DNA from: an uncultured bacterium
GTDB lineage: Bacteria; Patescibacteriota; Gracilibacteria; UBA1369; PNNO01
DNA length: 32,000 nt
NCBI GenBank assembly: GCA_963704705.1
Contig: OY969931.1
Location: 1,342,546-1,374,545, forward strand
Direction of reading: 5' to 3'
The notes under the pieces are model-generated. The model was not told the origin of the DNA, did not search any database, and was given only the letters and a program-made list of their open reading frames with translations. Positions 4,983 through 30,400 of this stretch are shown here, piece by piece. Position 1 is the first letter of the stretch; each line of letters starts with the position of its first letter. Position numbers and translations under genes: made by a program.

Positions 4983-5405
4983 ATGAGAATTCCACCAATT
5001 TTAAAGAACATGGCCTATCACATTTATGATCGTGGCATTGCAAAAAGAGTAATTTTTAAAATGCCTACAGATTATTTCTTTTTTATGTTAAAAATTGAAA
5101 AATATAAATTGAAATATAATATCGATATAACCAAATATTGTTTAATGCCTAACCATTTTCATTTTCTAATAAATGCAGGGTCAAAACCAAAAAAAATCTC
5201 AACATTTATGAAGTGCATAAAAACTTCATATGCTTATTTTTTTAACAAAAAATACAAACAATCTGGGCATGTATTCCAAGGCACCTTCCATGCCAATCCA
5301 ATAGTTTCAGTTAAACAAATGCATGATACAATCGAATATATTAAAAACAACCCAGTTAAAAAAGGCTTAATTGATAAAGCTGAAGATTGGCCATACTCAG
5401 GATAA
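4983..5405 (+). CDS. Y1 (HUH) transposase, IS200-like / REP-associated tyrosine transposase (RAYT) family
   Basis: 140 aa. HUH motif in CLMPNHFHFLI, catalytic-Tyr motif TIEYIKNNPVKKGL, C-terminal EDWPYSG. This mirrors the E. coli RayT pattern as I recall it (LPEHMHCIW / YIYINPVKHG / DWPFSTF). A GAGGA lies 13 nt upstream of the ATG. TAA stop. Confidence 0.85.
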   Translation: MRIPPILKNMAYHIYDRGIAKRVIFKMPTDYFFFMLKIEKYKLKYNIDITKYCLMPNHFHFLINAGSKPKKISTFMKCIKTSYAYFFNKKYKQSGHVFQGTFHANPIVSVKQMHDTIEYIKNNPVKKGLIDKAEDWPYSG

Positions 5406-9908: not shown

Positions 9909-10355
9909 TTATTTTCGTTTAAGTACTCGGGCAATGTCAAGATTTTGAGCTTTCTTTTTCAAATCCGCCCGTTTGTCGTAGAGTTTTTTTCCTTTAACAA
10001 GTGCGATTTTTAATTTAAGGAGCCCGCCTTTTGTATAAAGTTCAAGGGGTACGCAAGTTACTCCCTGCTCGTTTAATTTGGTTTCGATTTTGCTGATTTC
10101 TTTTTCATTAAGAAGAAGTTTTCTGTTTCTGTATGGATCTGCGTTATTTTTTCCTGCCATTTTATATGGCGAGATATGCGCTTTTTCAAGCCAAATTTCG
10201 TGCTTTGAACTTATGGAAATATAGCTGCCTTTTAAGTTAAGATTTCCTGTTCGGCAAGATTTTACTTCAGGGCCGATAAGCTGAATTCCCGCCTCAAAAC
10301 TTTCGAGAATTTCATAGTCGTGGAATGCCTTTTTGTTTTTTGAGAGAGTTGTCAT
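9909..10355 (-). CDS. smpB: SsrA-binding protein SmpB
   Basis: 148 aa starting at ATG 10355: MTTLSKNKKAFHDYEILESFEAGIQLIGPEVKSCR...NRKLLLNEKEI...KGKKLYDKR, colinear with canonical SmpB. The 345-aa ORF in the track (9909-10946) is this gene plus a spurious antisense read-through into the high-GC gene. Confidence 0.92.
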   Translation of the reverse strand: MTTLSKNKKAFHDYEILESFEAGIQLIGPEVKSCRTGNLNLKGSYISISSKHEIWLEKAHISPYKMAGKNNADPYRNRKLLLNEKEISKIETKLNEQGVTCVPLELYTKGGLLKLKIALVKGKKLYDKRADLKKKAQNLDIARVLKRK

Positions 10356-10465
10356 ATACGGTTGTAAGTTTAGGTGTTTTTGAAGATTTAAATCAAGAGG
10401 AATATTGGGGTTGTAAAATATGTCACTTATGGCATAATAGCAATCCCAGCTTTGCTTGGAACAAG

Positions 10466-10489
10466 CAATGAGCAAAGCTTTGCTCATTG
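10466..10489. promoter_or_regulatory. Perfect 24-bp palindrome in the divergent smpB / high-GC-gene intergenic region
   Basis: CAATGAGCAAAG|CTTTGCTCATTG is exactly self-complementary. It is flanked by a second small hairpin, TTGCTTG-gaa-CAAGCAA (10452-10468), and by a duplicated AGCTTTGCT (10448-10456 and 10477-10485). Function unknown (operator, or a recombination scar). Confidence 0.4.
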
Positions 10490-10541
10490 AAAAAATACGG
10501 CCAAAAAACCAAAACGAAGGAAGAAAAAAGGAGCGATTTAG

Positions 10542-13202
<2,661 letters not shown>

Positions 13203-13372: not shown

Positions 13373-16300
13373 ATGCGGACTTCAAATAATTGGCTTGAAA
13401 AGCGAAAAAACAGAGAACGTTTACTTGCCAGAACCCAAAACATCGCGATTGGCAGTTTAATAGCGGCTATAACCATTGGCCCGCTTATTTATTTTGCCGC
13501 AGTCGCAGTTCCAATCGAAATAAGAGAAGCGCGAAATGTTCAATTGACTGAAGAATCAGCGGCTACTCCTGAGATTGCAATTGAAATTCCGGCTACTCCG
13601 GAAATATCACTAAGTGAGAAACCAATTAAATTTCCTGAGCCCGTTAAAGAAATTAAAAAAATAGAAAATCCGAAAGTTGAATTTAAATTGTCAGATCTTC
13701 CTAAAGAAAACCAACAAAAAGAAATTGTTTCAACAGGTAAATCAGAATCGGCTGAAGCAAAATTTATAGATACTCTTAAAACAGAATTTAAAGATCAGGA
13801 GAAAGATGTCCAGATTAAAGTAACTAACAAACAAGTTGATGGGCAAAATGAAAAATTGGTAGTTATGGAGAATCTCGATATTGATGACGGACCACGACAA
13901 ATCCGAAAAACAGAAGATGCTGACACAGTTGCCAGAGCAGCGTTGAGAAAATATTTAAAAACAAATCCAAAAGAAGTTGATTTTGATATATACACCGATA
14001 CAAGCAAACTTACAAATTCAAAGAAAACATATCAGCTCGTTGTTTCTGATATAAAAACAAACAACGGAAAATGGTATGTAACATTCGAGCAATACAAAAA
14101 TGCACTTCCTGTTTTTGATGGAAATATAAAAATGATTTTTACGGAAAGAAAAAATTTAATTGCAATAACTGACAATATCAGAACTGACTTCCCGGAAATT
14201 GAGGACTTCTCAATCACAAATTCAGAAGCTTCAGGAGCCATACAAGATGTTTTCACGCAATGGGATGAAGGCGTAGATAAAATTGGATTTGTAAACAAGG
14301 GATATTATAAAAACAAACCAGCTTTCAAAATTGAATTGGAAAGTCATAATCCATTAGGAAATTTTGAAGTTCTTGTGGACGGATCAAACGGTGATATTGA
14401 GAATGTTAAGGGAGATATAAGGCTTGCTGATGAAACAGGTTATACAACAGAAGAGCTTGAAGGACTGCGTGCTGGAAATCCTTTACCTTACAACCCCGTA
14501 GTTGATAAAGTGGACCCCGTTCTTTACGATGTAGGTGAACGCAAACCTGAAGAAGAAAATCAAGTTTATCCTTCAGTTGAAGAACTGGATCAAATAAAAA
14601 TAAATGCAGAAAATACAGCGCTTCAACAGGAATTAATTGCAAATCCAGTAAATCCTGAAGCTCCACAACTGGAATTACAGAGAAGCGAAATTTTCCAAAA
14701 AATAATTGCACCGGTTTATGCCGAAGAGAAATTCCAGGTTCCTGAACAGCAAATTACAGGGCCTTCAATCGGAGTAATTCAGGAATTTTCTGCTACAGGC
14801 GATGCTGCGGCAACTCCTGATGTAGGGGCCACTCTTGAACCTGACATTGTAATTCTTGATACAATTTTCAGTCAGGTTTTAGGAAAAATTTATCCTCAAA
14901 CTCCGGATCAGGAACCAATAATTACACCTTTTGCCAACGCTTATACATTTTTCAGCCAGAAACAAAATATTACAGATGAAGGAGGATATTTTGAAAATAA
15001 AGATTTGGACTGGTACAGCGTATATCTCGATGGTCCATATGTGACTGTTTATGATGATGACGCCAGTTCGGATGCGGAAATCAAAGATCGCACGCCTGAA
15101 GACCCTTTTGTTTGGGATGAAAACAGTGCGAGTCTCGCAGCAATAAATGCGTTCTATCATACAAATGAAATGCATAAATATTTTGCTGATAAATTTAATT
15201 TCGATACAAATAAAAAAATTCCGGTTACTGTAAATTCCGAACTTGTTGATCAATATTTAAATGGTTGCGGTGCATGGTTTGATAATTCTGATAAATCCAT
15301 TGAAATGGGTCGCGGCGGTACCGATACCTGCCCTGAAGATTTGAATTATGCACTTTCTAGTGATTTTGTTTATCATGAATATACACACTTTGTAGTTGAA
15401 GAAATAACACATCTTCCAAATATTACAGGGGCTGAATCCGCAGCAATGGGTGAAGGACTTGCGGATTATTTTGCTGCATCTGCTAATAATGACCCTGTAT
15501 GGGGTGATGTGGTTGCCCCTAATGATACCAGGAATTTAAAAAATACTTTAAATTATAATTATGATCTTAATGGTGAATCTCATCATGATGGACAAATTTT
15601 TGCAGGAGCATTATGGGATTTAAGAACTTTGATTGGCCCTATTGAAGCTGACAAATTGGTATTTAACACTTTATATCAAGATAGACTGCATTTTGAAACC
15701 TTCATGTATGGAATGCTTATAGAAGATGATGATAACAATGATTTTTCTGATGGGACACCTCACATGCTTGAGATTTTAGCTGCATTTGAAAATCATGGAA
15801 TCGGACCAGGAATAGCTAACTTTGATGGGCTTCCTGTTGATCCTGAAGCCTGGACAGATTTGCTAGGTGAAGAAGCGCCTCAGGGACAGGAAGATTCAAT
15901 ATTAAACGCTATAAGTGCAGGGTGCGAGGGCTATGATGATGGCACTTCAATAGTAATCCCTGATAATGTCACCTGTACTTTTACTGGATCCGGAAGTCGT
16001 TCAATAATTTATTTAGCGGGTGGTGCTGATCTTTATATCGGAGATTCATCTACTTACGGGATTCTCTCAACTAGCGGCGATACCAGTATTTATGGAACAA
16101 CAGCAATATCATCATTAAGAATCGGATGGTATAGTGGTGTTTATGGCCGCTTAACAGTTGGCGATGAATTGTTCTTAATTAATGGCGGTTGGCTGTATTC
16201 GGGATATGACGGATCAAATTTTGCAAATGCAAATACATATCTTCATGTTACAGGCAGTACGCAAATATATAAACAATCCACCAGTTATACTTCAAGCAAC

Positions 16301-19300
16301 TTTGTTTCCATTTATAATGATGCAACAAGTGATAATAATTTGGGTGTTTTATATATAGGAAGAAGTGACACTTCTACTTCATTTTACGGAAACCAGAGTT
16401 ATTTTTACAATGGAGGTTCGGCAAGAACAAATGTCGACTATTTCAGACTGGATAATGGCGGCTATATAAATAATTATACAAACTTTTATGTGACTACTAG
16501 TAATTCGGATATTTTGAACGGGTCAATTATGTATAACCGAAGTAGTGCTATTTTCAATAACGCTGGATACACGACTTATGTCTGGGACGACTCTCTTTTT
16601 GATAATGACGGGACTGTAAACAGCAATAGTTTTGACTTCCGTGATTCAGCTGAATTAAATATGGATGGCGGCACAATTAATGGAACCACCGCTATTTTCT
16701 ACAATACTTCATGGCTGGATTTGAATGCCGGAACATTTAATGTAACAACAGCAACATATAACAATTCTACAAATGCGGATGTTGCAGGAGGTGATTTTAG
16801 TCCAACAACTGCAAATTTTTATACCACTTCTTATGTAAACCATTATACTGGCGGCAGTACTCATATTACCAGTTTAAACCTATACAACAGTAGTTTCTGG
16901 AACCATTACGGAGGAACTACCAGTATTGGCAACTTTAATATGAATGATACAAGCTATGCCAGGGCTAATACCAGCGGCCAAACACTAACAGCTACTTCAT
17001 TTAATCTGTATGATTCGGCTGTACTTGAAAAGGCTTATTACTCCGCAGCTTCAAATGGTGATGGAAATATTTCCGCAACTAATATCTGGCTACAGGGTAC
17101 TTCCAGCCTGGACATTTTGCGATCAACGGGTAGTGTAACTGCTTCCGGTACAATAACTGTTGATGACGACAGTCAATATTATCAGTCTACAGGTAGCACT
17201 ACAGCATCTTATTTTAGTGTAGTAGGTACGACTCAAACAACGCAGAGTGGCGAATTGTATTTGACGGGCGGTACTTTAACTGTAAGTACAAGATTATTAA
17301 TAAATGAAAACGGTTGGGTTAATCAAGACGGAGGTACGGTTGATGCCGTACTTGGCCAACTTAATAGTAATGCCGCTATATACGACCAGGATGGCGGTAC
17401 AGCGGATTTTGACACGCTCCGGATGTACTTAAATAGTCATTATCAAAATGACAGTGCGGTAATTATAAGAGTAGGAGGCGGAAACATGACTGATACTTCG
17501 GTCTTTGAAAATAATTATACTGCTGGAGGTACAGCAACGGTGACAATACCTTCAGGTTTAACAGGCCAACAATCATTCTTATTAGACACTTCCGCACATT
17601 TCTACAATAGATATGGGGGAAGTTTCACTACAGATACAAGCGGATCATCAAACGGGGATACTATCGACGTAATAGACTCATCAACTTTTGATAATTACGG
17701 AACATTAACCACTTATAATTTAAGAATAGGATGGAACGACGTAGATAAAACCCAAATAGGAGGCTTTTATCACAACTTATACACTACTTATGAAAGTAAG
17801 ACGAACGTACATGGCGATTTAATAATGTACAGAGGTTATATGAGTAATGATGCAGGCAGCACAACTGCATATGGGGTAGTTGTGAGTGGGAATGTAAATA
17901 TGAAAGGTTACTGGCAAGGAACAATATGTGACAATTCTGATTTAGAAAATAGTGGATTATTCTCTGTCAGTGGAAATATTACAATGACCAGTAGTACCCT
18001 GACCCCTGCTTACACCTGTACAGAAATCAACAACTTTGCCAATGCTTCGACTTTACATAAGTTTTCTGCAGCTAATATTACGTCTACATACGACTATTCT
18101 GACATAACAAATGCAGGCGATTTTTATGTTACAACTGGTTCAATAAACATGACTTCTACACATGCATTCTTTCAGAATTCTTCTAGTGGTTATGTTTCGG
18201 TATATGATGACTTTATTATAGATTCAACAGGTGCATATGCAGTTTATCTTGATAATTCCGGAGATTTTAATGTTGGAATTTCAACAACAAGTAGTCTCCA
18301 AGTAGCGGGAAATTCATATGTTGATAATAATTCGGGAGGGACTATAAATGTTGATGATGCTGCAACTACAAGTACAACCAGGGGGCAATTTACAATTTAT
18401 CAAGATGGTTCTTTGGTCAATGAAGGAGATGTAAGTGCAAATCTATTCTGGGTGGATAGTGGCGGAGGAACATCTGTAACGGGATTTGAAAATCAAAATG
18501 GGGGCACTATAACTTCAACATATAGCGGCAGTGCAACCTACGGAATGAAGTGTATTTACGCAATATGCCAACATAAAAATACTGCGACGAGTTTAACGGT
18601 GGCAAGTGGATTGTTGGTACAAAGTGATTTAAGTTATATTACGAATTTTATAGTCGGAGCACCAGCAAATATAAATAATGCTTATATTAACTGGAACAGT
18701 ATGGTAACCATTAATTCTAACGCCACTTTAACAGCATCTGGCCAATGGCAGGTTTTAGATGATCAAAATGCCACAATTCCTGATTATGACGGACAAATAG
18801 TCGTTACGTCAGGATCGACCTTTAATGGGGGATCTTCTGCAAACGTATACTTAGGAGGGCCAGCTAATACGGGCGGAGAAATTGACAATTCAGGATCTTT
18901 TTATGCTAACAATTTGACACTTTATGATAGTAGCCTATTTACCAACCAAAGCACTGGAGATGTCGGAATCTCAAATACATTGCAGCTCGCATATGAATTT
19001 ACGCCATCTGCATTTATTAGAAGTTATGAAAATTATGGTTCTACCGAAGCTACTTATTTGCAAGTATACGGAGATAATTCAATATTTAATTCGGATGGAA
19101 CTTCAGCTCAAATTTATATTAACAATGATTTGGACATTAATGGAGGCAAACTCACTGTTGCCAGCGGATCAGTAGGCGCAACAATTGATGGTAATGCTTA
19201 TATTTATTACAAAAACGGTTCAACAACTTCAGGCGAGCTTTATAATTTTGATAATAGCTTTGTTGTTGCAGGAAAAATGTACGTGTCAGGTTTTGTACAA

Positions 19301-22300
19301 AATGGTAATAGTTTATTTGGTGCCGCAATGGAAATCCGAAGCAATACAGGCTCAGAAGATTTATATGTACATAGAGGCGTATCTGCCGATGGATACGGTA
19401 AATTCCTCAATTCTGGCGCTACCCTAACGGTTGGTGATGCTTCCGGAGGAGAAATTAAAGTAGAAGGAATTCAAAATATTTCTTTACCTGGCTCTTACTA
19501 TATTGCTTTATTCCAAAATTCAGAGGGGGCTATACACAGAGCAGGCCATGTTAATACTGATGAAATGTATATAAAAACCGCAGCGGATTTACTCAATTAC
19601 ACCGACCTTAATGTAAACAATAAATTATGGACAGGCGAGGACGAGTCGCCAAAAACCGTTACCAACTATGCAACTGGCGATATCGACGTAATAGGTGATG
19701 GTGATTCATGGTTTTATAACAATTCAACAGTAACAAATAGCGGCACATTCGATGCAACCGGAACATCCGGCATCATGAAAGTAATGCAAACTGTACAAAC
19801 AACCACCTTGGATAACTACGGCACTCTTTCTACTGATAAACTTTGGAATGGTAGTTCTGCTGAATACTATGGAGGTACAACCAGCAATCTCACATCAGGA
19901 ACTATTACCGTCAACGACAGTACCTCAGATACAGCACAAAACTACGGTGGAACAATAATACAAAACTCAAGCGGTTCAATAGATATCAGTTCGGGCCGCT
20001 TTACCACAACAAGTAATTCCGGCTCGTATGTAGGAACTGTTACTCAAAATTCTGGTACAGGTGAAATTAAATTGGGCGAATTATATATTACAAATTATGG
20101 ATATTATGAAATTAGCGGTTCAAATACCGATCCCGGAACTCATGTTTATGATACCGTATCCAGTGGAAACCTGGCCATTTCGGGAACAACTTCCGAACTT
20201 TATATTAATGGTTCGCAGGTATACGTAGATGGTGCATCTAACATTTATGCAAATGGAACCCTTACAAACAATGCACTTAGAGTTTCAGGGTCAGGTGGTT
20301 TTGTTTCTGATGGTTTGACAACCGTTTATTCAGGCGGTTTATTAAACTCAGATAATGATTCCACATGCCTGTTTAATAGCGGATTAACAGTCCAGGGAGA
20401 AGCAAACATCCTTGATGATGCAACGATAATCGGAAATTTAATTATTGATTTAGGCGGACTTGTTAATTTTGGTTTCCAAAGTCCGGTAATTCCAAACGTA
20501 GGTGCGATATATGTATCAGGTTATCTGTATATGTATGGTTCCAATACGGTATTGAACAATAATAGCCAGTTTGCTGTAAACACATTTGGAACTTTTGGAT
20601 CAAGCACAGGCACTCAAACTGCAACTTTCAACAATAACGGTTATACCGACGTTTCGAACAGTTCTTTTGCAGCATTTGGCAATGACATTAATGTACAAAA
20701 AACAGGTATCATTAATAGTGATGGCCCTTTAACCACGGGCGACAATATGATTGTCAGTTCTGGCGGAACAGTGAATTTAAATGATAATGCGGCCAGTCCA
20801 GATGACTATTGCCAAACTTGGATAGGCAATGACGGCACAGGAAATTTAACAATTAATCAGGATGGCACAGATATAGGTAAAGTGACTGTAAATTGTACAA
20901 GAACAACTAGTTCCGCTGAACTGACCGTATTTAGTAATACCTATGTATATGGCGAACTTGAATTAAACTCGGGAATGCTAACCCAAAACATGATAATAGG
21001 TGAACCAAGCGCCGCTTATACTGGCTCTGTATATCATAAACCTATAGTTGACCTTATAGGCGACAATGCTCCGGATATTGTATTTTTACTAACTATTACT
21101 CATGATTTAACCATAAATCCTGAAGGTGAAATTAACGTTAGTGCTTTATCATATATTAAGCCTTCATCAACTCATCCATATGCAGGTGTATTCGGAGGCA
21201 AAGGTCAGTATTCAAGTGCAACAGGAATTACTGAATATGGAACCATTGAAACCGGTTCAGTAAATTTTGGACGAGCAGGAGAAGATGCTGACCGTGATTT
21301 AGGTGCCGGAGGAGGTAAAGCTCAGGTAGTTGTTGGAAACGACGCAGTTGTAAACGGACCGATAAATGCGGACGGAGAAAGTGTAAAGCCAAATTTTGAT
21401 GTTGGCGGCGGAACAACTTATGATTGCGCAGGAAGCGGCGGAAGCGTATTCCTTACTATAGGTGGAGCCTTGAGCGGAAGCGGAGATATTACTGCAAGAG
21501 GCGGCGACTCAACTCCTGATATTTCAGGAGGCACAGCTGTTGCAATGGCTGGTGGTGGTGGTCGTATATATATAGAATATTATGATAAATCAGCTTATAC
21601 CGGTAAAGTAAAAGCAAATGGCGGTGCTGCCGACAGAGATACTTCATCTGGCGGACTAAACCTATATCACGCCGGAACAGGTACTGTTTTCTATAAATGG
21701 ACAGATCCATGGGCAAATGAAAATGACGGTACACTTGTAATAGATCCGGATGGTTCTTGGGCTGATATAGATTTCAGTGGTACCGGAACTTTAATAGATG
21801 CGACTACATTGGCAAATCTAACCGATAAATATTTAGATGTTGAAAGTGTTCAAATTGAACCTTACGGAAGTCTGCACCTGCCAGGTACCAATTGTGCGGG
21901 TGGAACCTGTTCAAAATTACAACAATGTTTAAAGGCAACTCCTGCTTCATTCTTTTTGGATACATTAGGAGAAGTTTTATATAACAGAGACCATGGAAGT
22001 GGAACTATAAAAAGCGTATGTATTGCTACACCGGATCCTCCTTATAAATTATTTATCAATGACCCTGGAACAGGAGCCCAAAGCGCAATTAACGCCAAAG
22101 AAGGTGACCCTATTGCAACATTGTTTAGCCTTGTTCCTAAGTTCTCGGCTATACATTTTGATGGACGCTTTGACAGTACAGGTACTTATGCGGATGCAAG
22201 TCCTCATCAGGCAACTCATTATGAGATACAAATAGCTGACACTGACGCGACTTATCCAACAAGCCCTCAATATTTATTTGATGATAATGCAACGCATATA

Positions 22301-23326
22301 ATTTGTGATATTGATGATACTGCATTGGTAGCTGATACCGATAGCGGCAACAGAGTTGCTGATCTGCAAATTCCTTATGCTGGCTGCGGTGAATATTTAA
22401 CTGCAAATGAAAATTATTTTTACAGAGTAAGATTTAAAGAATACGATCCTGCAAACAGTCCTTATTGGGGCTTATGGAGTCAGACAAACTGGTTTGAACT
22501 TGGCGAAGGCGGAACAATTGATTTGGCAAATTGCGGCTCAGCCGACCTCAATTATGATACTCAGACAGGTGGCAACTTCACAATTGGCAATACTTTAACT
22601 GATTCTACCAGTGGTGCTACAGGAACAATAATTGCAGATGTCGATAATGGAACCGATGGTACTTTAACTATTCATATCACCTCAGGCACCTTTAGCAGCG
22701 GTGATACAATTACCGATGGCACTGCCAGTGCAACAGTCTCAAATAATCCATCTTATAAATTAAATATAGGGCCTTATGATTCATCAACAGGAGATAATTT
22801 CTTCGCAGATTATTGTAATTTTAATACAGAAGCTACAGTAACCATGCACATCAAAGCAACTAAAGATGACTTGTTGTCTGACGAAAGCGACCCTTATAAT
22901 AAAATCAGGGATATGATTGATGAAGAAAGTGATAGTTTGCCTGATATGGACGGAACTACTGTTGGCGGAGTAATAACAAATGAAAGTGGTTTCTACTTAA
23001 GCAATGTTAATACTAGTGAATTCACGGTTGGTGAATTTAACATCTTTGGGGATAAATATACAGATTACTGGTCGAACTTACCTCCTAACTCGCCATCATC
23101 AAATACAGTTCTTACAAGTTCGGGAGGTTATTTAAATGAATCGTTCACGTTTAATTTAGGTGCATTTATCCATGGATTAATACCTCACCCAACAGATCCG
23201 ATTAATAATGATCCGGCAGGAACTGCATGTAATGGAAACCCACTCAATTTGATTTATAACAACTGCGTTTCTTTAAGCGGTAATTATTCAATGATTTTAA
23301 CCTTAACCGCTTCAACAACTCCTTAA
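13373..23326 (+). CDS. Giant (3317 aa) membrane-anchored surface protein with an M36/M4-type metalloprotease head, a ~1700-aa beta-solenoid-like repeat region, a Gly-rich cassette and C-terminal modules
   Basis: Uninterrupted 9.95-kb ORF. Basic N-terminus plus one TM helix (IAIGSLIAAITIGPLIYFAAVAV, aa 24-46). FTP/PepSY-like propeptide (WYVTFEQYKNALPVFDGNIKMIF). HEYTH zinc motif (15374-15388) with a downstream MGEGLADYFA glutamate and ESHHDGQIFAGALWDL. The rest is N/T/S/G/Y-rich degenerate repeats. TAA stop. Confidence 0.92.
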   Translation: MRTSNNWLEKRKNRERLLARTQNIAIGSLIAAITIGPLIYFAAVAVPIEIREARNVQLTEESAATPEIAIEIPATPEISLSEKPIKFPEPVKEIKKIENPKVEFKLSDLPKENQQKEIVSTGKSESAEAKFIDTLKTEFKDQEKDVQIKVTNKQVDGQNEKLVVMENLDIDDGPRQIRKTEDADTVARAALRKYLKTNPKEVDFDIYTDTSKLTNSKKTYQLVVSDIKTNNGKWYVTFEQYKNALPVFDGNIKMIFTERKNLIAITDNIRTDFPEIEDFSITNSEASGAIQDVFTQWDEGVDKIGFVNKGYYKNKPAFKIELESHNPLGNFEVLVDGSNGDIENVKGDIRLADETGYTTEELEGLRAGNPLPYNPVVDKVDPVLYDVGERKPEEENQVYPSVEELDQIKINAENTALQQELIANPVNPEAPQLELQRSEIFQKIIAPVYAEEKFQVPEQQITGPSIGVIQEFSATGDAAATPDVGATLEPDIVILDTIFSQVLGKIYPQTPDQEPIITPFANAYTFFSQKQNITDEGGYFENKDLDWYSVYLDGPYVTVYDDDASSDAEIKDRTPEDPFVWDENSASLAAINAFYHTNEMHKYFADKFNFDTNKKIPVTVNSELVDQYLNGCGAWFDNSDKSIEMGRGGTDTCPEDLNYALSSDFVYHEYTHFVVEEITHLPNITGAESAAMGEGLADYFAASANNDPVWGDVVAPNDTRNLKNTLNYNYDLNGESHHDGQIFAGALWDLRTLIGPIEADKLVFNTLYQDRLHFETFMYGMLIEDDDNNDFSDGTPHMLEILAAFENHGIGPGIANFDGLPVDPEAWTDLLGEEAPQGQEDSILNAISAGCEGYDDGTSIVIPDNVTCTFTGSGSRSIIYLAGGADLYIGDSSTYGILSTSGDTSIYGTTAISSLRIGWYSGVYGRLTVGDELFLINGGWLYSGYDGSNFANANTYLHVTGSTQIYKQSTSYTSSNFVSIYNDATSDNNLGVLYIGRSDTSTSFYGNQSYFYNGGSARTNVDYFRLDNGGYINNYTNFYVTTSNSDILNGSIMYNRSSAIFNNAGYTTYVWDDSLFDNDGTVNSNSFDFRDSAELNMDGGTINGTTAIFYNTSWLDLNAGTFNVTTATYNNSTNADVAGGDFSPTTANFYTTSYVNHYTGGSTHITSLNLYNSSFWNHYGGTTSIGNFNMNDTSYARANTSGQTLTATSFNLYDSAVLEKAYYSAASNGDGNISATNIWLQGTSSLDILRSTGSVTASGTITVDDDSQYYQSTGSTTASYFSVVGTTQTTQSGELYLTGGTLTVSTRLLINENGWVNQDGGTVDAVLGQLNSNAAIYDQDGGTADFDTLRMYLNSHYQNDSAVIIRVGGGNMTDTSVFENNYTAGGTATVTIPSGLTGQQSFLLDTSAHFYNRYGGSFTTDTSGSSNGDTIDVIDSSTFDNYGTLTTYNLRIGWNDVDKTQIGGFYHNLYTTYESKTNVHGDLIMYRGYMSNDAGSTTAYGVVVSGNVNMKGYWQGTICDNSDLENSGLFSVSGNITMTSSTLTPAYTCTEINNFANASTLHKFSAANITSTYDYSDITNAGDFYVTTGSINMTSTHAFFQNSSSGYVSVYDDFIIDSTGAYAVYLDNSGDFNVGISTTSSLQVAGNSYVDNNSGGTINVDDAATTSTTRGQFTIYQDGSLVNEGDVSANLFWVDSGGGTSVTGFENQNGGTITSTYSGSATYGMKCIYAICQHKNTATSLTVASGLLVQSDLSYITNFIVGAPANINNAYINWNSMVTINSNATLTASGQWQVLDDQNATIPDYDGQIVVTSGSTFNGGSSANVYLGGPANTGGEIDNSGSFYANNLTLYDSSLFTNQSTGDVGISNTLQLAYEFTPSAFIRSYENYGSTEATYLQVYGDNSIFNSDGTSAQIYINNDLDINGGKLTVASGSVGATIDGNAYIYYKNGSTTSGELYNFDNSFVVAGKMYVSGFVQNGNSLFGAAMEIRSNTGSEDLYVHRGVSADGYGKFLNSGATLTVGDASGGEIKVEGIQNISLPGSYYIALFQNSEGAIHRAGHVNTDEMYIKTAADLLNYTDLNVNNKLWTGEDESPKTVTNYATGDIDVIGDGDSWFYNNSTVTNSGTFDATGTSGIMKVMQTVQTTTLDNYGTLSTDKLWNGSSAEYYGGTTSNLTSGTITVNDSTSDTAQNYGGTIIQNSSGSIDISSGRFTTTSNSGSYVGTVTQNSGTGEIKLGELYITNYGYYEISGSNTDPGTHVYDTVSSGNLAISGTTSELYINGSQVYVDGASNIYANGTLTNNALRVSGSGGFVSDGLTTVYSGGLLNSDNDSTCLFNSGLTVQGEANILDDATIIGNLIIDLGGLVNFGFQSPVIPNVGAIYVSGYLYMYGSNTVLNNNSQFAVNTFGTFGSSTGTQTATFNNNGYTDVSNSSFAAFGNDINVQKTGIINSDGPLTTGDNMIVSSGGTVNLNDNAASPDDYCQTWIGNDGTGNLTINQDGTDIGKVTVNCTRTTSSAELTVFSNTYVYGELELNSGMLTQNMIIGEPSAAYTGSVYHKPIVDLIGDNAPDIVFLLTITHDLTINPEGEINVSALSYIKPSSTHPYAGVFGGKGQYSSATGITEYGTIETGSVNFGRAGEDADRDLGAGGGKAQVVVGNDAVVNGPINADGESVKPNFDVGGGTTYDCAGSGGSVFLTIGGALSGSGDITARGGDSTPDISGGTAVAMAGGGGRIYIEYYDKSAYTGKVKANGGAADRDTSSGGLNLYHAGTGTVFYKWTDPWANENDGTLVIDPDGSWADIDFSGTGTLIDATTLANLTDKYLDVESVQIEPYGSLHLPGTNCAGGTCSKLQQCLKATPASFFLDTLGEVLYNRDHGSGTIKSVCIATPDPPYKLFINDPGTGAQSAINAKEGDPIATLFSLVPKFSAIHFDGRFDSTGTYADASPHQATHYEIQIADTDATYPTSPQYLFDDNATHIICDIDDTALVADTDSGNRVADLQIPYAGCGEYLTANENYFYRVRFKEYDPANSPYWGLWSQTNWFELGEGGTIDLANCGSADLNYDTQTGGNFTIGNTLTDSTSGATGTIIADVDNGTDGTLTIHITSGTFSSGDTITDGTASATVSNNPSYKLNIGPYDSSTGDNFFADYCNFNTEATVTMHIKATKDDLLSDESDPYNKIRDMIDEESDSLPDMDGTTVGGVITNESGFYLSNVNTSEFTVGEFNIFGDKYTDYWSNLPPNSPSSNTVLTSSGGYLNESFTFNLGAFIHGLIPHPTDPINNDPAGTACNGNPLNLIYNNCVSLSGNYSMILTLTASTTP
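14885..15808 (+). other. Fungalysin/thermolysin-like (gluzincin) peptidase domain within giant gene 1
   Basis: Motif series: INAFYHTNEMHKYFADKFNF, VYHEYTHFVVEE (HExxH), AAMGEGLADYFA (third zinc ligand Glu, codon 15452-15454), GESHHDGQIFAGALWDL. Their order and spacing match the M36 (fungalysin) and M4 families as I recall them. Confidence 0.7.
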
Positions 23327-23333
23327 ATATATT

Positions 23334-26300
23334 ATGGTAAAAAAACAAACACAAAAATTCAGCCTAAATCTTACACTTCTAACAATGATATTAAGCATTG
23401 CACTATATGCAATTTTAATATTGATGCCGGGCGTGCAAGCTGTTGATGTGCCTGCGGATGCTGAAGTTGGCGACCCTGATTGCTTCTGGTCTAATGGGCC
23501 AGGCTCTGAACTTTATGTGCCTAGCGGAAAGACTTGTACGATCGACTTTGACATAACAGCAACGAATGTTGCTGGCTGGACCGACTATGCAGTAATAGTT
23601 TATTCAGGTGGTACTTTAGAAGTTGTCGGCAATGGTTCAGACACCAAGCTCGATATTGATGGTGATATATATATAATGGGAACAGTAAATATTGGTGACA
23701 CAAATTCATCAAGCGTTATAAATTTCAGAACAATTAACGGCGGAGATTTAACTCTTGGAAATAATGCCACTGCTTCAATGACAGTAAGAGATAACTCAGG
23801 GGCAGGAACAAATCGTGTGGCTGTTACCGGTACCACTTATGTTGGAGATAGTTCGCAACCCAACACTCCAACCTTAACAATAAACTCAACATACCCTTTA
23901 ACTTCTTTTGAAAAAATTGATATTTACGGGCACATGAATGTGAACGGAGGCACAACAACTGCCTCGGGAATTGAATTGATGGACCTGGATAGCAATTCTG
24001 CCGAACTAAACATTGCAACAGGGGCAATTGTAACTATCGATAGTTTCTTCTCCCCTCCGCCCGGCCATCCATTTAATGGGTATGATATTTCACTTGGCCT
24101 CGGAATGTGGGCACATGCAGGTACAACAACCGTAACAGTCAACGGTACTTTAAATGCGCCTACTTCTGGAGGCGATGTATCAGTGATAGTGGGATCAAAC
24201 ATAGGCGCAAGCCATGCTAAGCTGGTTGTCGGTTCAACCGGAACAGCTAATTTCCAGGAAACAAACACATTCGCAATCCCTGACACTCTTACCGGCCCAA
24301 CTAATGCATTGTGGATATTAAGCGATATGCCTTATGGGCTTGAAGTTCAGGGCGCAGTTAACTCTTATATGTTTATACGGAACAATGGTTACATACATAT
24401 AACCGGAGGCAGCGGCTGGGTTGGCGGGAACAACAGTTATCAACAGGCTTCAGCCTTAAAAGTGGGCGATGGTGATACTTTAAATATAACAGGTATGGCG
24501 GATATTGATGGTGATTCTGTAATTGATGGGACATTAAACGTGACCCGCTGTACAAAAATAACAAATGATGCAACATCAACTTTCAGTGTAGGCTCGACCG
24601 GAACATTCAATACAAACACTGCTGGCACAGGTTGTACGCTGGCAAATACCAGCTCAAATGACGGCTTGAATGTTCAGGGTACAGATACAGTATTAAATAT
24701 TGCGAACGGTTCTGGCGGAGCAGGTGACCAAACTGTATTTATTAATTATGGCGACTTTAGAGTTGATGACGGCGGGACAGTTGATGCAAACGGATATTAC
24801 ACTGTTGAAGACGACATGATTGTTGAAGGCGGTTCAAATGTTTCAATGCAGGATACCGATATAGGTGATAATTTTAAAGCGGATAATGTTCTTGTTAATC
24901 CGGATTCTGGTGGTGCTAGTTCGGCCTTATCTATTGAAGCTAGTTCGGCGTTTGATTTGGTAGTCGGGCAGGTTGATATTGGAACAACTGCAAGTGCCGG
25001 AACAGGAGGAATAACCGTTCATGGAACACTTAATGTGCCAACATCGTCAACTTATAATTTTAAAGTATCCGACACGGGCCAGCTGGTAATTGAAGCCGGC
25101 GGAAAAGTTAACGATGATGCTTCAAGCGGCCAATTCTTAATTGAAGGCGGGGTAGTGGTCGTACGAGGAGCTTCCGGTAATCCGGGACTGCTTTATATCG
25201 CTGATCAGGAACTTCAAATGAGTAATGGCTCGACAACGGCATCTTTAATCATAGGTGATGCAAGTAATGAATATGGTGTATTAAACAGCGAAGCAACTCC
25301 TGCTGCTGCTCCTGGATTTGATTTCCAGGATGGTGTTTTGGATATTCAATATCATAGCGAAGCGACTTTTAATGATACTGTTGAGCTGTTAACCGGAGAC
25401 GAGATGTATATCGGCGGATATCTTAGAGGAACCGATGGTGTAAAGATAAGCTGCGATTCTGCAACTGTTATCGAATGTGAAGTTGAAGATTCGGGTGAAA
25501 TTAAAGTTGAAGGGTCAGGAACACCAACTATTAATGTATTGGATGATCTAAATCTTGTTGGAAAATTAAATGGTAATGATGGCGCTGGCGATGTTTCTAT
25601 AACAAACAATTCTACTATCTCAAGCAGGTCAATTAATGGTGAAGATTCATATTTTTATATAATTGCAAATAATTTAACTATAGGAACCGGTTCTTCTATT
25701 GATGTTTCGGAATTTGCCAGATGTATCAGTCCGGGCGGAACTCCAACTTACGGAGGAAGTTTTGGTGGTGAAGGTATGGGCGGCAACACAGAAACTTTCG
25801 GGGAAGCAAAATATACAACACCACCAAATTATGCAACAAGTTCTCCAAATCCTATTGGAATGTGTGGTTATAATAGTTTTGGAGAAAATGCTGGATTTGG
25901 AGGCGGTGCGGTTTATATAGATGCTTATAATATTATTGATATTAGTGGTCCTATACTTGCAAATGGTGAGGATTTTCCTGGTAATGATGCCGGTTCAGGT
26001 TCCGGCGGACTAATAGTTATTAATCATAATATTACACATTCTGATACTTCCGCTGATTTTAAAGGAGCTGCAAACATTGAGGCGGATGGCGGGAATGGTT
26101 CAGGTACAAGCAACAGTTATGGTGGCGGCGGCGGAAGAATTGTGATTAATTCAATATTATTCGAACAACCTGATGACGATGAAACAGGGCCTCCTCACTA
26201 TGCATATGAAGGCGGCATTTATGCAAATGGCGGAGGAACAAGCGGTTATACAGGCGATTACGCTGCAGCTGGTACAATTGTATTCCTTGGTGACGACAAC

Positions 26301-27464
26301 AATCCAAACGGAACTTTGATCGTTGATCAGGGTAACAGGCCGCTCGGAACAAGCGCTAAGGAAACAAATATTACCGCAACCGGTGATTATGTCTTTGACA
26401 GAATTGAATCTAAGCAGGGTGCAAAACTCACTTTTGATACTGCTCCGGGAACTGATCCCGTTAGCTGTTTTGTGGATGACGGAACTTCTTCAGTTGATTT
26501 AAACGGCGGAACTTGTACGGCAAATGCTGACAAGCCGGATACTTTATATATAAACAATACTTACACTGGTGCTCAGTCAGGCGATGAACCTTGGTTCACT
26601 GTTCCTGTTACAGTTAGTGACGGAACTCCGGAATTCAGTTTCAAATTCAGAAACCCTGAAAATGGAGCCCAAGAAGGACAGTATGCATTAATTGAAGTTG
26701 ATGATAGTTCGGATTTCTCTTCTCCTTTATGGAGTGCGAGTGACTCAAACAATCCGGTGCCAATCGCTACTGTGGGCGAAAGCGCAAGAACAGAAGATAT
26801 AGGATACGGCGGGGCAGCGTTAACTGGCGGAACAACATATTATGTAAGAGCAGCATTCTCAAATTCTGATGGTTCTGTTAGAGGTCTTTGGACTCACCGC
26901 GACATGGGTAATTATTATCAATTTGATCTAAGTCCTTCATATATGGAAATTTCTAATGATTGTAGTGATGTTATTGCTGTTGATAATGTCGGAAATCCAT
27001 TGCAGTACAAACCTAACGGTATGTACGGAAGCGGAAGTTGTACGTTTACATTAACTTCAACTGATACTGCTTGGGACCTTTACTACAGCAAAATCAGTGA
27101 TGCTTCGATTCTTAATGACGGCACAGGTACTTATGTTTGGGCTGATATTGATAATGCTGGTGCTGATTGTACTGTTGATAATACCGGCAATACCGAAGAT
27201 GAAGAATATGGCTTTAACTTAACAAGTTTAACTGGATTTGGAAGCGCGATTGTTGAAACCGATGCTGAATGCAGCTCTCTATACACTTCTTCTGATGTAT
27301 TTGATATTGAAACACTAACCAATAAAAACAAAATTATTGAAGGCAATGGAACAACAATTTCAGGTGCAACACTTGATCTTGTAATTCACGCGAATGTTGA
27401 TCGATATACAGCTGCAGAAACATATGAACTCGACACTATTATGATACTTTCTGACACACCTTAA
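23334..27464 (+). CDS. Giant (1376 aa) secreted beta-solenoid-like surface protein, paralog of the C-terminal two-thirds of gene 1
   Basis: Starts 7 nt after the gene 1 stop. Signal peptide ...ILILMPGVQA|VD. Cys50/Cys68 cap, N/T/S/G-rich repeats, Gly-rich cassette (25671-26336), a module with the Y-Y-V-R-A motif (26532-26930), and a C-terminal domain ending ...IMILSDTP. TAA stop. Confidence 0.92.
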   Translation: MVKKQTQKFSLNLTLLTMILSIALYAILILMPGVQAVDVPADAEVGDPDCFWSNGPGSELYVPSGKTCTIDFDITATNVAGWTDYAVIVYSGGTLEVVGNGSDTKLDIDGDIYIMGTVNIGDTNSSSVINFRTINGGDLTLGNNATASMTVRDNSGAGTNRVAVTGTTYVGDSSQPNTPTLTINSTYPLTSFEKIDIYGHMNVNGGTTTASGIELMDLDSNSAELNIATGAIVTIDSFFSPPPGHPFNGYDISLGLGMWAHAGTTTVTVNGTLNAPTSGGDVSVIVGSNIGASHAKLVVGSTGTANFQETNTFAIPDTLTGPTNALWILSDMPYGLEVQGAVNSYMFIRNNGYIHITGGSGWVGGNNSYQQASALKVGDGDTLNITGMADIDGDSVIDGTLNVTRCTKITNDATSTFSVGSTGTFNTNTAGTGCTLANTSSNDGLNVQGTDTVLNIANGSGGAGDQTVFINYGDFRVDDGGTVDANGYYTVEDDMIVEGGSNVSMQDTDIGDNFKADNVLVNPDSGGASSALSIEASSAFDLVVGQVDIGTTASAGTGGITVHGTLNVPTSSTYNFKVSDTGQLVIEAGGKVNDDASSGQFLIEGGVVVVRGASGNPGLLYIADQELQMSNGSTTASLIIGDASNEYGVLNSEATPAAAPGFDFQDGVLDIQYHSEATFNDTVELLTGDEMYIGGYLRGTDGVKISCDSATVIECEVEDSGEIKVEGSGTPTINVLDDLNLVGKLNGNDGAGDVSITNNSTISSRSINGEDSYFYIIANNLTIGTGSSIDVSEFARCISPGGTPTYGGSFGGEGMGGNTETFGEAKYTTPPNYATSSPNPIGMCGYNSFGENAGFGGGAVYIDAYNIIDISGPILANGEDFPGNDAGSGSGGLIVINHNITHSDTSADFKGAANIEADGGNGSGTSNSYGGGGGRIVINSILFEQPDDDETGPPHYAYEGGIYANGGGTSGYTGDYAAAGTIVFLGDDNNPNGTLIVDQGNRPLGTSAKETNITATGDYVFDRIESKQGAKLTFDTAPGTDPVSCFVDDGTSSVDLNGGTCTANADKPDTLYINNTYTGAQSGDEPWFTVPVTVSDGTPEFSFKFRNPENGAQEGQYALIEVDDSSDFSSPLWSASDSNNPVPIATVGESARTEDIGYGGAALTGGTTYYVRAAFSNSDGSVRGLWTHRDMGNYYQFDLSPSYMEISNDCSDVIAVDNVGNPLQYKPNGMYGSGSCTFTLTSTDTAWDLYYSKISDASILNDGTGTYVWADIDNAGADCTVDNTGNTEDEEYGFNLTSLTGFGSAIVETDAECSSLYTSSDVFDIETLTNKNKIIEGNGTTISGATLDLVIHANVDRYTAAETYELDTIMILSDTP

Positions 27465-27470
27465 TATATT

Positions 27471-30400
27471 ATGAAAAAAACAAAAACTAACATCTTGGCG
27501 GCTATAATCGGAATTTTGCTCGGAAGCATCAGTATCTGGCTTATGCCTGGTGCTTTGGCGCAAGATTCTAGTGTGGCGCAGATTCAGGTTGAAGTAAAAA
27601 GCGGATGTAACTGGCAGGGAACTCCTTATGCATCTGATTTATGGGTACTCGATGATACTATTTGTATACTTACAGGCACTCATGATATCGGTGCAAACGA
27701 TGTGGTGGTTTATGAAGATGACGGTGGAGGCGGCCAGCTCGGAGGAATTTTGATTATTGGAAGTGATGGAGTTGATACAGACATCACGGTTGGCTCTACA
27801 CTTATAAATAATGGAACACTTGAAATTGGTGTAAGCGGAGATCCTGCAACTAATTCAAATTTGCAGGTTAACGGAACTTCAATAATTTCAGCAACCGGCA
27901 GTGATGGTAATTTGAATATTCTCGCAAACTCTGACACAAGCAGTACCTGCGGGCCTTCATTTACTGATCCTTGCGGTAATAATACTATCGAACTGGGTTC
28001 ATCTTTAACAATCGCTTCTTCTTCAACAGGAGGAACATTTACGAATAATGATGACTCAACAACAAGCACGATTGATTCAATATCAATTTACGGACCTACA
28101 CAATTAAATCACGGTCTGCTTGAAAACCTTGCAGGAACAATCACTGTGACAAATCAAATCGACATGTACGGCTATGGTGAAATCAATAATGACGGAATAC
28201 TCACGCTGGGAAATGTTGCATCTTACTGGAATAATTATGCAAGTGCAGATAACAGCGGTACCTTTAATTCACCAAATACAATCAATATATATAGCGGTTC
28301 AACTCTTACAAATACCGGTACTTGGAATGGCGGCACACTTTACTTTACCGGTTCAGGAACAAGTGAAAACAATTCCGGAACCATGAATTTATCTACATTA
28401 AATTTCATTTCAAGCGGAACATTCAACAATACTGGTACCGGCGATATTAACGTAACCGGTAATATAATATTAAATAGCGGCGGTACAATTAATAATAATG
28501 ATACCGGAACAGTAACTGTTGATGCAGGAACTTATATTTACAATGCATCCAGTGATATTAATAATAATAGTTCGTGGCAAACCGACCTATTGCAAATTGG
28601 CCTTTTGCCAACAGCGATCGGTGGTAGTTTTAACAATTACGGCTCACTTAGCTTCCCTTCCCCTTCTGTTACGTCAATGAACATTATCAATGGTGGTGAT
28701 CTTAATAATGAATCTACCGGAACTATCACTGTTCCAACAAATATTTATATGGAAGGTGCTTCAGGACAGATTTCAACAATTACAAATACCAATACAACCG
28801 ATACAGACGCAATTGACGTTACAGGACAGATTAATATGGATGCTTATTCTTTAATTAACAATTCGGGTAATTTATCAACAAGCGGAACAAATAATATTGA
28901 TATCCAGGACAATGGTGCGACTATAACAAATACAACAAATGGATATATCAATCTTAAGGGTTCAGCTCAGGAATTTAATTTTGATGTTGCGATCGATAAC
29001 GATGGAACAATCAACACTGTTTCTTCTGCATTAATTTTATCTGATACTGCTGATTTAAATAATACAACCAACGGTATTGTGGATATTAATGGTTCAGGCA
29101 AGGACTTAACCTTAAACAACTCCGCAAACATTGATAATGCGGGAGTATTTAATGTAATTGATGCGACTTATCTTAATGATACAAGTACTACAACCCAAAC
29201 AGCAGGAGACTTTAATACAGTCACGCTTTATCTAAATGACACAACTTCAGCCGAAGCCAACTTCACAATGTCAGCAGGAACTGTTGATGTTACAGGCTAC
29301 ACTTATGTGTACGACGGTGGGACCGTAAACAATAATGTTATTAACATTAATGGCGGAACTTTAAATACAGCAACATTAAGAATTGGTGAAATCGGATCTA
29401 CAAACGGCGGAATAATCAACGTCGACTTAACCGGAAGCCTAAGTGTAATTGGCGGAACTTACGACCACATTTACAAAGGAACGCTCGATATCAAATCAAC
29501 AAGTACCGCTACCACTCCTTTCACTTTTGATGACAGGATATATATAAATGGAGACGGTACTGAAAAAGGTATTATAAATCATAATGGTTCGGGAACCGTA
29601 CATGCATACTCCTGGTTATCCGTATATGAATACGGTGAAATAAATATTGATAATGGAATATGGAATCAACATAATTCCGATTTCAATGTGCTTTCAAATG
29701 CCGCAGGAGATATACATGGCGAATTAAATATCGGAACAAACGGAACACTTTACGATGTTAACATTTTATATGCAGGCAGATACGATTACGGGGTAAGTCA
29801 AAACAGGCCCGGCGGAAACATAGTCAACAACGGAAACATGACTGCACCTGGAGGAGGCGGCGATTTGATGTGGCTTAACTGGGGCGGAAGACTTGAAAAT
29901 TACGGAACAATTGATTTGGGTCCAACTGGTTATATCGAAATGGATACAAGAGAAACTTTCTGGACTGCAACTGGCAGATCAAATTATTTCCTAAACGATA
30001 CAGGCGCAAGCTTTACATCCAATAATTTCCTTATGTATGACAACAATGACGATCCCGGGAATTCACATGAACGGGATAATTTAGTTGATAATAACGGTTC
30101 AATTACAATTTATCATGAAATGTATCTAGGTAATTCGTCTTATGACGGAGGTATTATTAACAACAATAGCGACATACAAATTGCTTACAAATTATGGGTT
30201 TATAAAGGTGGTGTATTCAACAATAATCCTGATGCTACCGTAACCGGAATAACTTCGGGAACTCCTGATACCATGAATATATTGACTGTACGTGGAGCCG
30301 ACGCATTAGGCAACAAAGCAACTTATAACCAATTCGAAGGTACAGATTCCCCTACTCAGGCATATAAAACAGTAACCGACAATTTGTCGATAGGCTTTAC

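What the first reader, a model, noticed from the sequence alone, without database searches (positions are those of the whole stretch)
21104..21754. Conserved glycine-rich cassette shared by the giant paralogs and not assignable to a family I know
Gene 1 (21104-21754) and gene 2 (25671-26336) align motif for motif, although their solenoids have diverged. The paired motifs are LTINPEGEINVS / LTIGTGSSIDVS, YAGVFGGKG / YGGSFGGEG, GAGGGKAQVVV / GFGGGAVYIDA, VNGPINADGES / ISGPILANGED, AGSGGSVFLTI / GSGSGGLIVIN, ITARGGDS / IEADGGNG, GGGGRIYIEY / GGGGRIVINS, VKANGG / IYANGG, AGTGTVFYK / AAGTIVFLG and DGTLVIDPDG / NGTLIVDQGN. Gene 3 appears to enter the same cassette as the window ends (TTNFYINADSLDVQSGGKISSDG, about 31890-31970). 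It is not an RTX GGxGxD repeat. A conserved module after hypervariable repeats suggests an assembly, anchoring or secretion-recognition function.
Basis: seen in the sequence. Interest (0 to 1): 0.65.

Follow-up and report, generated by a model that had tools for sequence, protein, structure and literature searches.

The report
Unnamed glycine-rich beta-helix surface-protein domain
The shared glycine-rich stretch is a real protein domain of about 250 residues, predicted to form a beta-helix, that sits once in each of three neighbouring giant secreted proteins of a Patescibacteria bacterium; hundreds of unnamed secreted bacterial proteins also carry it, so it is a useful uncatalogued domain rather than a new kind of system.

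Summary
All ten motif pairs are present, in the same order, in gene 1 (13373-23326) and gene 2 (23334-27464). The two cassettes align with z=11 over composition-matched shuffles. Profile envelopes are nt 21071-21817 and 25617-26399, slightly wider than the finding. The paralogue homology also continues about 250 residues further, into an FN3/Ig-like domain.

Gene 3 (27471 onward) leaves the window about 20 residues into the cassette. Its syntenic orthologue in Patescibacteria SAG AM-312-L06 carries the full cassette.

The cassette matches nothing in Pfam-A, NCBIfam or PDB sequences. The only named link is sub-threshold hits of distant relatives to NCBIfam AgmC_N. It is not RTX.

It is not private to these genes. 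There were 82 cluster representatives, and 378 proteins at E<=1e-5, from about 8 phyla, all annotated as hypothetical. Outside Patescibacteria the domain forms tandem arrays of 2-7 copies, often starting just after a signal peptide. That argues against a secretion-recognition role.

AlphaFold2 with the family alignment (pTM 0.79) gives an all-beta solenoid with a rung period of about 41 residues. Invariant positions are almost all glycine.

Best reading: a structural beta-helix module of extracellular proteins, kept as the conserved junction between a fast-evolving solenoid and the FN3-like domain. Function is untested.

The parts
13373..23326 (+). Gene 1, 3317 aa. It has an N-terminal TM/signal anchor, an HExxH metalloprotease-like block, a long variable beta-solenoid, the cassette, an FN3-like domain and a C-terminal region.
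   Evidence: ORF list and translation. Identical to library protein P0001. Orthologue conservation profile.
21071..21817 (+). Gene 1 cassette (aa 2567-2815): glycine-rich beta-helix domain, subtype A.
   Evidence: HMM envelope, 184 bits. Motif positions. AF2 model with pTM 0.79, all-beta.
22211..22504 (+). Gene 1 FN3/Ig-like domain (aa 2947-3044), part of the module shared by the paralogues.
   Evidence: Weak Pfam Ig_Rha78A_N hit, E=0.016. Lies inside the g1/g2 BLASTP alignment.
23334..27464 (+). Gene 2, 1376 aa: signal peptide, solenoid, cassette, FN3-like domain, C-terminal region. It starts 7 nt after the gene 1 stop.
25617..26399 (+). Gene 2 cassette (aa 762-1022), subtype B.
   Evidence: HMM envelope, 202 bits. 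Motif positions.
26604..26879 (+). Gene 2 FN3/Ig-like domain (aa 1091-1182).
   Evidence: Pfam Ig_Rha78A_N, E=0.0023, below threshold. Aligned to the gene 1 counterpart.
27471..32000 (+). Gene 3, at least 1509 aa, with a signal peptide. It runs off the window end and starts 6 nt after the gene 2 stop.
   Evidence: Open frame to the window end. 32-33% identical and collinear with the SAG gene 3.
31896..32000 (+). First ~20-35 residues (rung 0) of the gene 3 cassette, cut by the window end.
   Evidence: Motif located. It aligns to SAG gene 3 aa 1661-1704, where that protein's complete cassette (aa 1685-1931) begins. P0011 (Patescibacteria) is near-identical at this point: TTTNFIINANDLDVQSGGSISSD.

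Best explanation
The cassette is one copy of an uncatalogued but widespread extracellular domain of about 230-260 residues. It is predicted to fold as a glycine-rich parallel beta-helix. After an entry rung (LTIxxxGxIxVS) comes a Gly/Tyr/Pro-rich excursion of about 55-65 residues (GGSYGGxG...YG...P..GxGG). Four rungs follow with a period of about 41 residues, each of the form G-x-G-G-x-[IV]-x-[IL]...G-x-[IV]-x-A-x-G-G: GGGAxxIxV..NGxIxANG, GSGGSIxx..GSGxIxANGG, GGGGRIAx..FxGxxxAxGG and GAAGTIxx..GxLIxDN. In this Patescibacteria locus each of three tightly linked, Sec-exported giant paralogues has one copy. The most likely role is structural: a conserved, rigid, correctly registered beta-helix core that ends the fast-evolving solenoid and couples it to the FN3-like domain, possibly also acting as its folding nucleus or cap. 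It is probably not an enzyme, a calcium roll or a sorting signal. Shown: the homology, the domain boundaries, the family distribution, the tandem-array architecture elsewhere, the predicted all-beta solenoid, and the conservation pattern. Inferred: the structural or folding role and the surface location.
For: Real homology. Family: 82 representatives at E<=1e-3, of which 24 at E<=1e-10, and 378 proteins at E<=1e-5 with the 33-sequence profile. The source names that are given cover Chloroflexota, Dormibacteraeota, Patescibacteria, Planctomycetota, Verrucomicrobiota, Lentisphaerota, Bdellovibrionota and Proteobacteria. There is one copy per Patescibacteria protein, and 2-7 tandem copies at 230-290-residue spacing elsewhere. 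Signal peptides are present at the N-termini. Companion domains are Ig-like, dockerin and DUF4347. AF2 with the family alignment gives pTM 0.79, with pLDDT of about 90-97 on the rung strands and strands only up to a short helix near the C-terminal end. The insignificant best PDB fold hits are all beta-helices: IcsA passenger, pectate lyases and LbH acyltransferases. hhalign against itself finds rung 91-131 similar to rung 133-173. [IVL]xAxG[GE] recurs every 40-47 residues. All 16 invariant columns are Gly; the 17 near-invariant columns are 9 more Gly plus Ile, Ala, Arg and Thr, which points to fold-determining rather than catalytic positions. The cassette-plus-FN3 block is a conservation island among orthologues. 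The three-gene arrangement with 6-7 nt spacers is conserved in SAG AM-312-L06.
Confidence: 0.55

Rival explanations
1. Adhesin or ligand-binding module. The conserved Gly/Tyr/Pro excursion between rung 0 and rung 1 forms a binding surface, for example for a glycan, and tandem arrays in other phyla give avidity.
For: Conserved aromatic and Pro positions sit in a region that is otherwise loop (GGSYGGxG, YGxxxP). Tandem repetition. Companion Ig-like and dockerin domains typical of adhesive or carbohydrate-active surface proteins. Large Patescibacteria proteins are reported to be surface-targeted and rich in adhesion domains (PMC13059738).
Against: No known carbohydrate-binding or adhesin family matches. 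The invariant residues are nearly all Gly. In the Patescibacteria proteins it is the solenoid, not the cassette, that varies, as would be expected for the host-contact part.
Confidence: 0.2
2. Heterotypic assembly domain. The cassette-plus-FN3 module lets the three co-expressed paralogues associate into one surface fibre, with gene 1 supplying the membrane anchor.
For: It is the only block shared by all three paralogues. The genes are separated by 6-7 nt with near-identical junctions. The trio is syntenic in a second genome. Gene 1 has a long N-terminal hydrophobic anchor, while genes 2 and 3 have AxA-type signal peptides.
Against: No oligomer prediction could be run. Elsewhere the domain is repeated within single chains and often has no paralogous neighbours. 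Subtype A (gene 1) and subtype B (genes 2/3) cassettes are only 27-35% identical.
Confidence: 0.1
3. Envelope-anchoring or secretion-recognition signal.
For: Conserved position near the C-terminal third of all three proteins. Genes 2 and 3 have no other recognisable anchor.
Against: The domain occurs in 2-7 copies, often beginning at residue 70-130 right after a signal peptide, in phyla with very different envelopes. About 300-500 residues follow it in genes 1 and 2, so it is not terminal. No conserved secretion or sorting genes lie next to three sampled family members. Sec signal peptides already account for export.
Confidence: 0.1
4. RTX-like calcium-binding beta-roll, or a compositional (low-complexity glycine) artefact.
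For: 18-20% Gly, with Gly-Gly-Asp/Asn turns such as ANGGD and ADGGNG.
Against: No GGxGxD in any of the three cassettes checked, and the rung period is about 41 residues rather than 9. No HemolysinCabind hit. z=11 over shuffles and profile E-values down to 1e-85 on independent proteins exclude a composition effect.
Confidence: 0.03

Closest known systems
NCBIfam NF047640 gliding_AgmC_N (N-terminal domain of the Myxococcus adventurous-gliding protein AgmC)
   Same: Seven of the 33 family cassettes hit positions ~230-400 of this 412-position model, best E=2.2e-7. AgmC's N-terminal region therefore probably contains a distant version of the same rung array.
   Different: Scores are 15-23 bits against a cutoff of 275. 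The window cassettes themselves do not hit even at E<=1. Only about 40% of the model is covered. I found no paper on AgmC's structure or mechanism in the library. That agmC came from a mariner screen for gliding mutants is from my memory only.
Right-handed parallel beta-helix passengers and enzymes (IcsA/VirG passenger, pectate lyases) and chlamydial Pmp GGA[ILV]/FxxN repeats
   Same: Predicted all-beta solenoid with about three strands per rung, Gly-rich turns, extracellular location, and a place in very long surface proteins. A GGA[ILV]-like motif opens one rung.
   Different: Foldseek E-values are 1.4-10 with TM<0.15. Chlam_PMP hits only 1 of 33 cassettes, at E=0.43. FxxN is mostly absent. 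The rung period is about 41 residues with 20-residue Gly loops, against 18-25. No autotransporter barrel is present.
RTX nonapeptide beta-roll (Pfam HemolysinCabind)
   Same: Glycine-rich, beta-solenoid, secreted.
   Different: No GGxGxDxUx motif, a different period, no Pfam hit.
Autochaperone / C-terminal folding nucleus of autotransporter passengers
   Same: A functional analogy only: a conserved beta-helical segment at the C-terminal end of a variable beta-helix.
   Different: No sequence match. Export is through Sec with the N-terminus first, and the organism is a Patescibacterium without an autotransporter barrel. In other phyla the domain is repeated N-terminally.

Membership tests
RTX / HemolysinCabind | Tandem GGxGxDxUx nonapeptides | tested here: not met
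   Regex finds none in the g1, g2 or SAG g3 cassettes. No Pfam hit.
NCBIfam NF047640 AgmC_N | Score of at least 275 bits over the 412-position model | tested here: not met
   Window cassettes: no hit at E<=1. Distant relatives score 15-23 bits over model positions 230-400.
Chlamydial Pmp repeat (PF02415) | Repeated GGA[ILV] and FxxN tetrapeptides with a Pfam match | tested here: not met
   1 of 33 at E=0.43. One GGA[ILV] per cassette; FxxN is absent in g1.
Pectin-lyase-like / PbH1 right-handed beta-helix | Significant sequence or fold match to Beta_helix, NosD or pectate lyase | tested here: inconclusive
Autotransporter passenger | C-terminal beta-barrel translocator and autochaperone domain | tested here: not met
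   No Autotransporter or AC_1 Pfam hits on full-length genes 1 and 2.
Pfam Gly_rich (PF12810, ALK/LTK-type) and other glycine-rich families | Pfam match | tested here: not met
   No hit for any of the 33 cassettes at E<=1.
The new family itself (cassette HMM built from A2) | Full-length match to the 242-position profile with the ordered rung motifs GGGA.., GSGGS.., GGGGR.., GAAGT.., LIxDN | tested here: met
   g1 184 bits, g2 202 bits, SAG g3 139 bits. The window's gene 3 has only rung 0 before the window ends.

The most novel reading that the evidence does not exclude
The cassette-plus-FN3 module is a dedicated hetero-assembly domain. Through it the three co-translated paralogues, one of them membrane-anchored and carrying a metalloprotease, would build a single composite host-attachment fibre on the Patescibacteria cell surface. 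The wider family would then define a new self-associating glycine-rich beta-helix used to build extracellular fibres across many phyla.
Probability: 0.1. Interest if true: 0.7.

Novelty: new member of a known kind. Interest (0 to 1): 0.4.

Why it matters
Patescibacteria (the Candidate Phyla Radiation) are mostly uncultured epibionts. Their very large proteins are thought to be surface-targeted candidates for host recognition (PMC13059738), yet most of their sequence has no annotation. This work defines a clean domain of about 250 residues with boundaries, a consensus, a predicted fold and a seed alignment. The domain recurs in hundreds of 'hypothetical' secreted proteins from about eight phyla. 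That gives annotators a new family to add to Pfam or InterPro. It separates the conserved scaffold from the fast-evolving, probably host-facing solenoid in these giants. It also gives structural biologists a tractable construct. The result is useful cataloguing and does not reveal a new biological principle.

Tried and rejected
- **Word-indexed homologue search:** a search with the single gene 1 cassette found nothing.
- **Exact-protein look-ups:** window genes 1 and 2 are not on record, so the DNA beyond nt 32000 could not be fetched. The SAG orthologue was used instead.
- **The search for related loci:** The narrow alignment found only one genome.
- **Structure prediction:** single-sequence AF2 failed with pLDDT 32.
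- **PHROGs:** one family of unknown function, phrog_13336, hit 5 of 33 cassettes.
- **tblastn:** the family consensus found nothing in the phage or plasmid collections.
- **Literature:** searches on the motifs and on AgmC found nothing relevant.
- **Rfam and tRNA scans:** the window is empty for both, so there is no RNA explanation.
- **Genomic neighbourhoods:** three distant family members showed no shared context.
- **Rejected readings:** RTX, low-complexity artefact, enzyme and C-terminal sorting signal.

Full report
**Context.** The window is bacterial with about 38% GC. It carries topA, a phosphoglucomutase, nadD-like and nadE genes, smpB and an IS200-type transposase. It has no tRNA or Rfam-recognised RNA. 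From nt 13373 three same-strand ORFs follow one another with 6-7 nt spacers:
- Gene 1, 13373-23326, 3317 aa.
- Gene 2, 23334-27464, 1376 aa.
- Gene 3, 27471 to the window end, at least 1509 aa.

Each starts with a hydrophobic export signal. The closest genome is Patescibacteria SAG AM-312-L06 (JBHPJE010000005.1), which has the same trio: 3498 aa, 1392 aa and at least 2044 aa.

**The observation.**
- MAFFT gives 36% identity over the cassette.
- Composition-adjusted BLASTP gives E=2e-10.
- The local alignment score is 188, against 63+-11 for 500 shuffles (z=11). Unrelated solenoid windows of the same size average 71.

Glycine content of 18-20% therefore does not explain the match. A family HMM places the domain at g1 aa 2567-2815 (nt 21071-21817) and g2 aa 762-1022 (nt 25617-26399).

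Two corrections to the finding follow. The domain is slightly wider than the stated coordinates. The g1/g2 homology also continues for about 250 more residues through a linker into an FN3/Ig-like domain, which gives weak Pfam Ig_Rha78A_N hits in both proteins.

**Gene 3.** The window ends about 20-35 residues into the putative third cassette (nt 31896-32000). The DNA beyond could not be fetched, because the window proteins are not on record. The SAG's syntenic gene 3 aligns collinearly with the window's gene 3 right up to ...CGYQSNFFIDATSVNVQASGQIASDDVS. It then continues into a complete cassette at aa 1685-1931, scoring 139 bits. Two other Patescibacteria proteins, P0010 and P0011, do the same. 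The third copy is thus supported by orthology, though it is not seen directly.

**Conservation island.** Among orthologues, the gene 1 solenoid (aa 1000-2200) is 29-47% identical and the cassette-plus-FN3 block (aa 2500-3000) 58-68%. In gene 2 the solenoid is 26-42% and the cassette 51-63%. The cassettes fall into two subtypes. Subtype A is the gene 1 type. Subtype B is the gene 2/3 type, which carries two insertions, HNIxHSDT..F and SILFEDPDDxE..HY. B-to-B identity is 40-55% and A-to-B is 27-35%.

**Is it a known family?** No catalogued family fits.
- Pfam-A gave no hit on the window cassettes or on any of 33 family cassettes at E<=1.
- NCBIfam gave no hit on the three full proteins.
- PDB sequences gave none, by phmmer or by profile.
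- RTX is excluded. There is no GGxGxD motif, the period is about 41 rather than 9, and there is no HemolysinCabind hit.

The only named link is NCBIfam NF047640 (AgmC N-terminal domain). It is hit by 7 of 33 distant family members at 15-23 bits, against a cutoff of 275, over model positions ~230-400. It is not hit by the window cassettes. One PHROG of unknown function (13336) hits 5 of 33.

**It is not private to these genes.** A two-sequence profile scanned over 1.84 billion representatives found 82 proteins at E<=1e-3 and 24 at E<=1e-10. A 33-sequence profile found 378 at E<=1e-5 among only 8000 scored candidates.

Source names place them in Anaerolineae, Dormibacteraeota, Pacebacteria/Patescibacteria, Planctomycetota/Phycisphaerales, Verrucomicrobiales, Lentisphaerae, Bdellovibrionales, Zeta-, Delta- and Gammaproteobacteria. 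All are 'hypothetical' or are named after another domain.

The Patescibacteria proteins have one copy each. Most others have 2-7 tandem copies spaced 230-290 residues apart, often beginning at residue 70-130 just after a signal peptide. Companion domains are Ig-like (Big_5, I-set, CarboxypepD_reg, Ig_Rha78A_N), dockerin and DUF4347. Three sampled neighbourhoods share no machinery.

**Structure.** Single-sequence AF2 failed with pLDDT 32. With the 33-sequence alignment the model has pTM 0.79 and mean pLDDT 69.
- The rung strands reach pLDDT of about 90-97.
- Secondary structure is strands only until a short helix near the C-terminal end.
- The Gly/Tyr-rich excursion (model residues 44-64) is below 50.

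The strand pattern, a weak internal repeat (rung 91-131 similar to 133-173) and the recurrence of [IVL]xAxG[GE] every 40-47 residues describe a solenoid. Each rung has about 41 residues: three strands plus a Gly-rich loop of about 20 residues.

All 16 invariant alignment columns are Gly. The 17 near-invariant columns are 9 more Gly plus Ile, Ala, Arg and Thr. That is a fold-determining pattern, not a catalytic one.

**Mechanism.** The best-supported reading is a structural beta-helix module of secreted or surface proteins. In this locus it is the conserved junction, and perhaps the folding nucleus or cap, between a rapidly diverging solenoid and an FN3-like domain. The solenoid is probably the host-facing part. 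I put confidence in this reading at 0.55.

The fold, family, architecture and conservation are shown. The role is inferred. The rivals are:
- A ligand-binding adhesin module that uses the conserved Gly/Tyr loop (0.2).
- A hetero-assembly domain joining the three co-expressed paralogues (0.1).
The N-proximal tandem arrays in phyla with unrelated envelopes weaken it, and so do the 300-500 residues that follow the cassette here.
- RTX or a compositional artefact (0.03).

**Verdict.** The finding is real and carefully observed. It defines an uncatalogued domain family worth adding to domain databases. It is another beta-solenoid module of giant bacterial surface proteins, not a new kind of system. 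Interest 0.4; novelty 'new member of a known kind'.

Noticed in passing
window 15374-15472 (gene 1 aa 668-700); also aa 223-265: Gene 1 carries HEYTH...GEGLADYF, an HExxH + ExxxD Glu-zincin signature resembling thermolysin (M4) or fungalysin (M36), plus a weak FTP propeptide hit (E=0.008). This block is the most conserved part of gene 1 among orthologues (72-85%). No Pfam peptidase model or PDB sequence matched.
   Followed up: partly
window ~10947-13202 (+), inside ORF 10542-13202; L001 1-1500: Immediately upstream of gene 1 lies a gene for a cysteine-rich repeat protein (CGNG..E.GE.CDG pattern; weak DUF4215 hit) with a C-terminal TM helix plus RRRK. Its GC is 56-60% in a genome of about 38%. 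The same GC island sits upstream of the gene 1 orthologue in the SAG.
   Followed up: partly
window 23318-23336 and 27456-27473: The g1/g2 and g2/g3 junctions are nearly identical (..CCT TAA (A)TATATT ATG), with 6-7 nt spacers. Genes 1 and 2 both end in -TP*. This suggests duplication that included the junction, and translational coupling.
   Followed up: no
window 22577-22720 (gene 1 aa 3069-3116); L002 gene 3: A motif of about 50 residues, FTIGNTLTDSTSGATGTIIADVDNGTDGTLTIHITSGTFSSGDTITDG, recurs after the cassette and inside the solenoid of the SAG gene 3. It has no Pfam match.
   Followed up: no
window 4983-5405: An IS200/Y1-type transposase (Pfam Y1_Tnp, E=5e-12) sits between housekeeping genes.
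   Followed up: no
window 9909-10946 (-) versus 10542-13202 (+): The mechanical smpB ORF is 345 aa, but the SmpB domain covers only aa 201-342. This ORF and the opposing 10542 ORF overlap by about 400 nt, so at least one start codon is over-extended in the mechanical ORF list.
   Followed up: no
distant family members P0013-P0082: In non-Patescibacteria members each cassette is preceded by a conserved G..LTH(S) motif. The first copy follows a conserved lead-in (FT.dT.I...d..Y.gqdIvVdGCTLTVnG.H.F). The His is not conserved in the window's cassettes.
   Followed up: no
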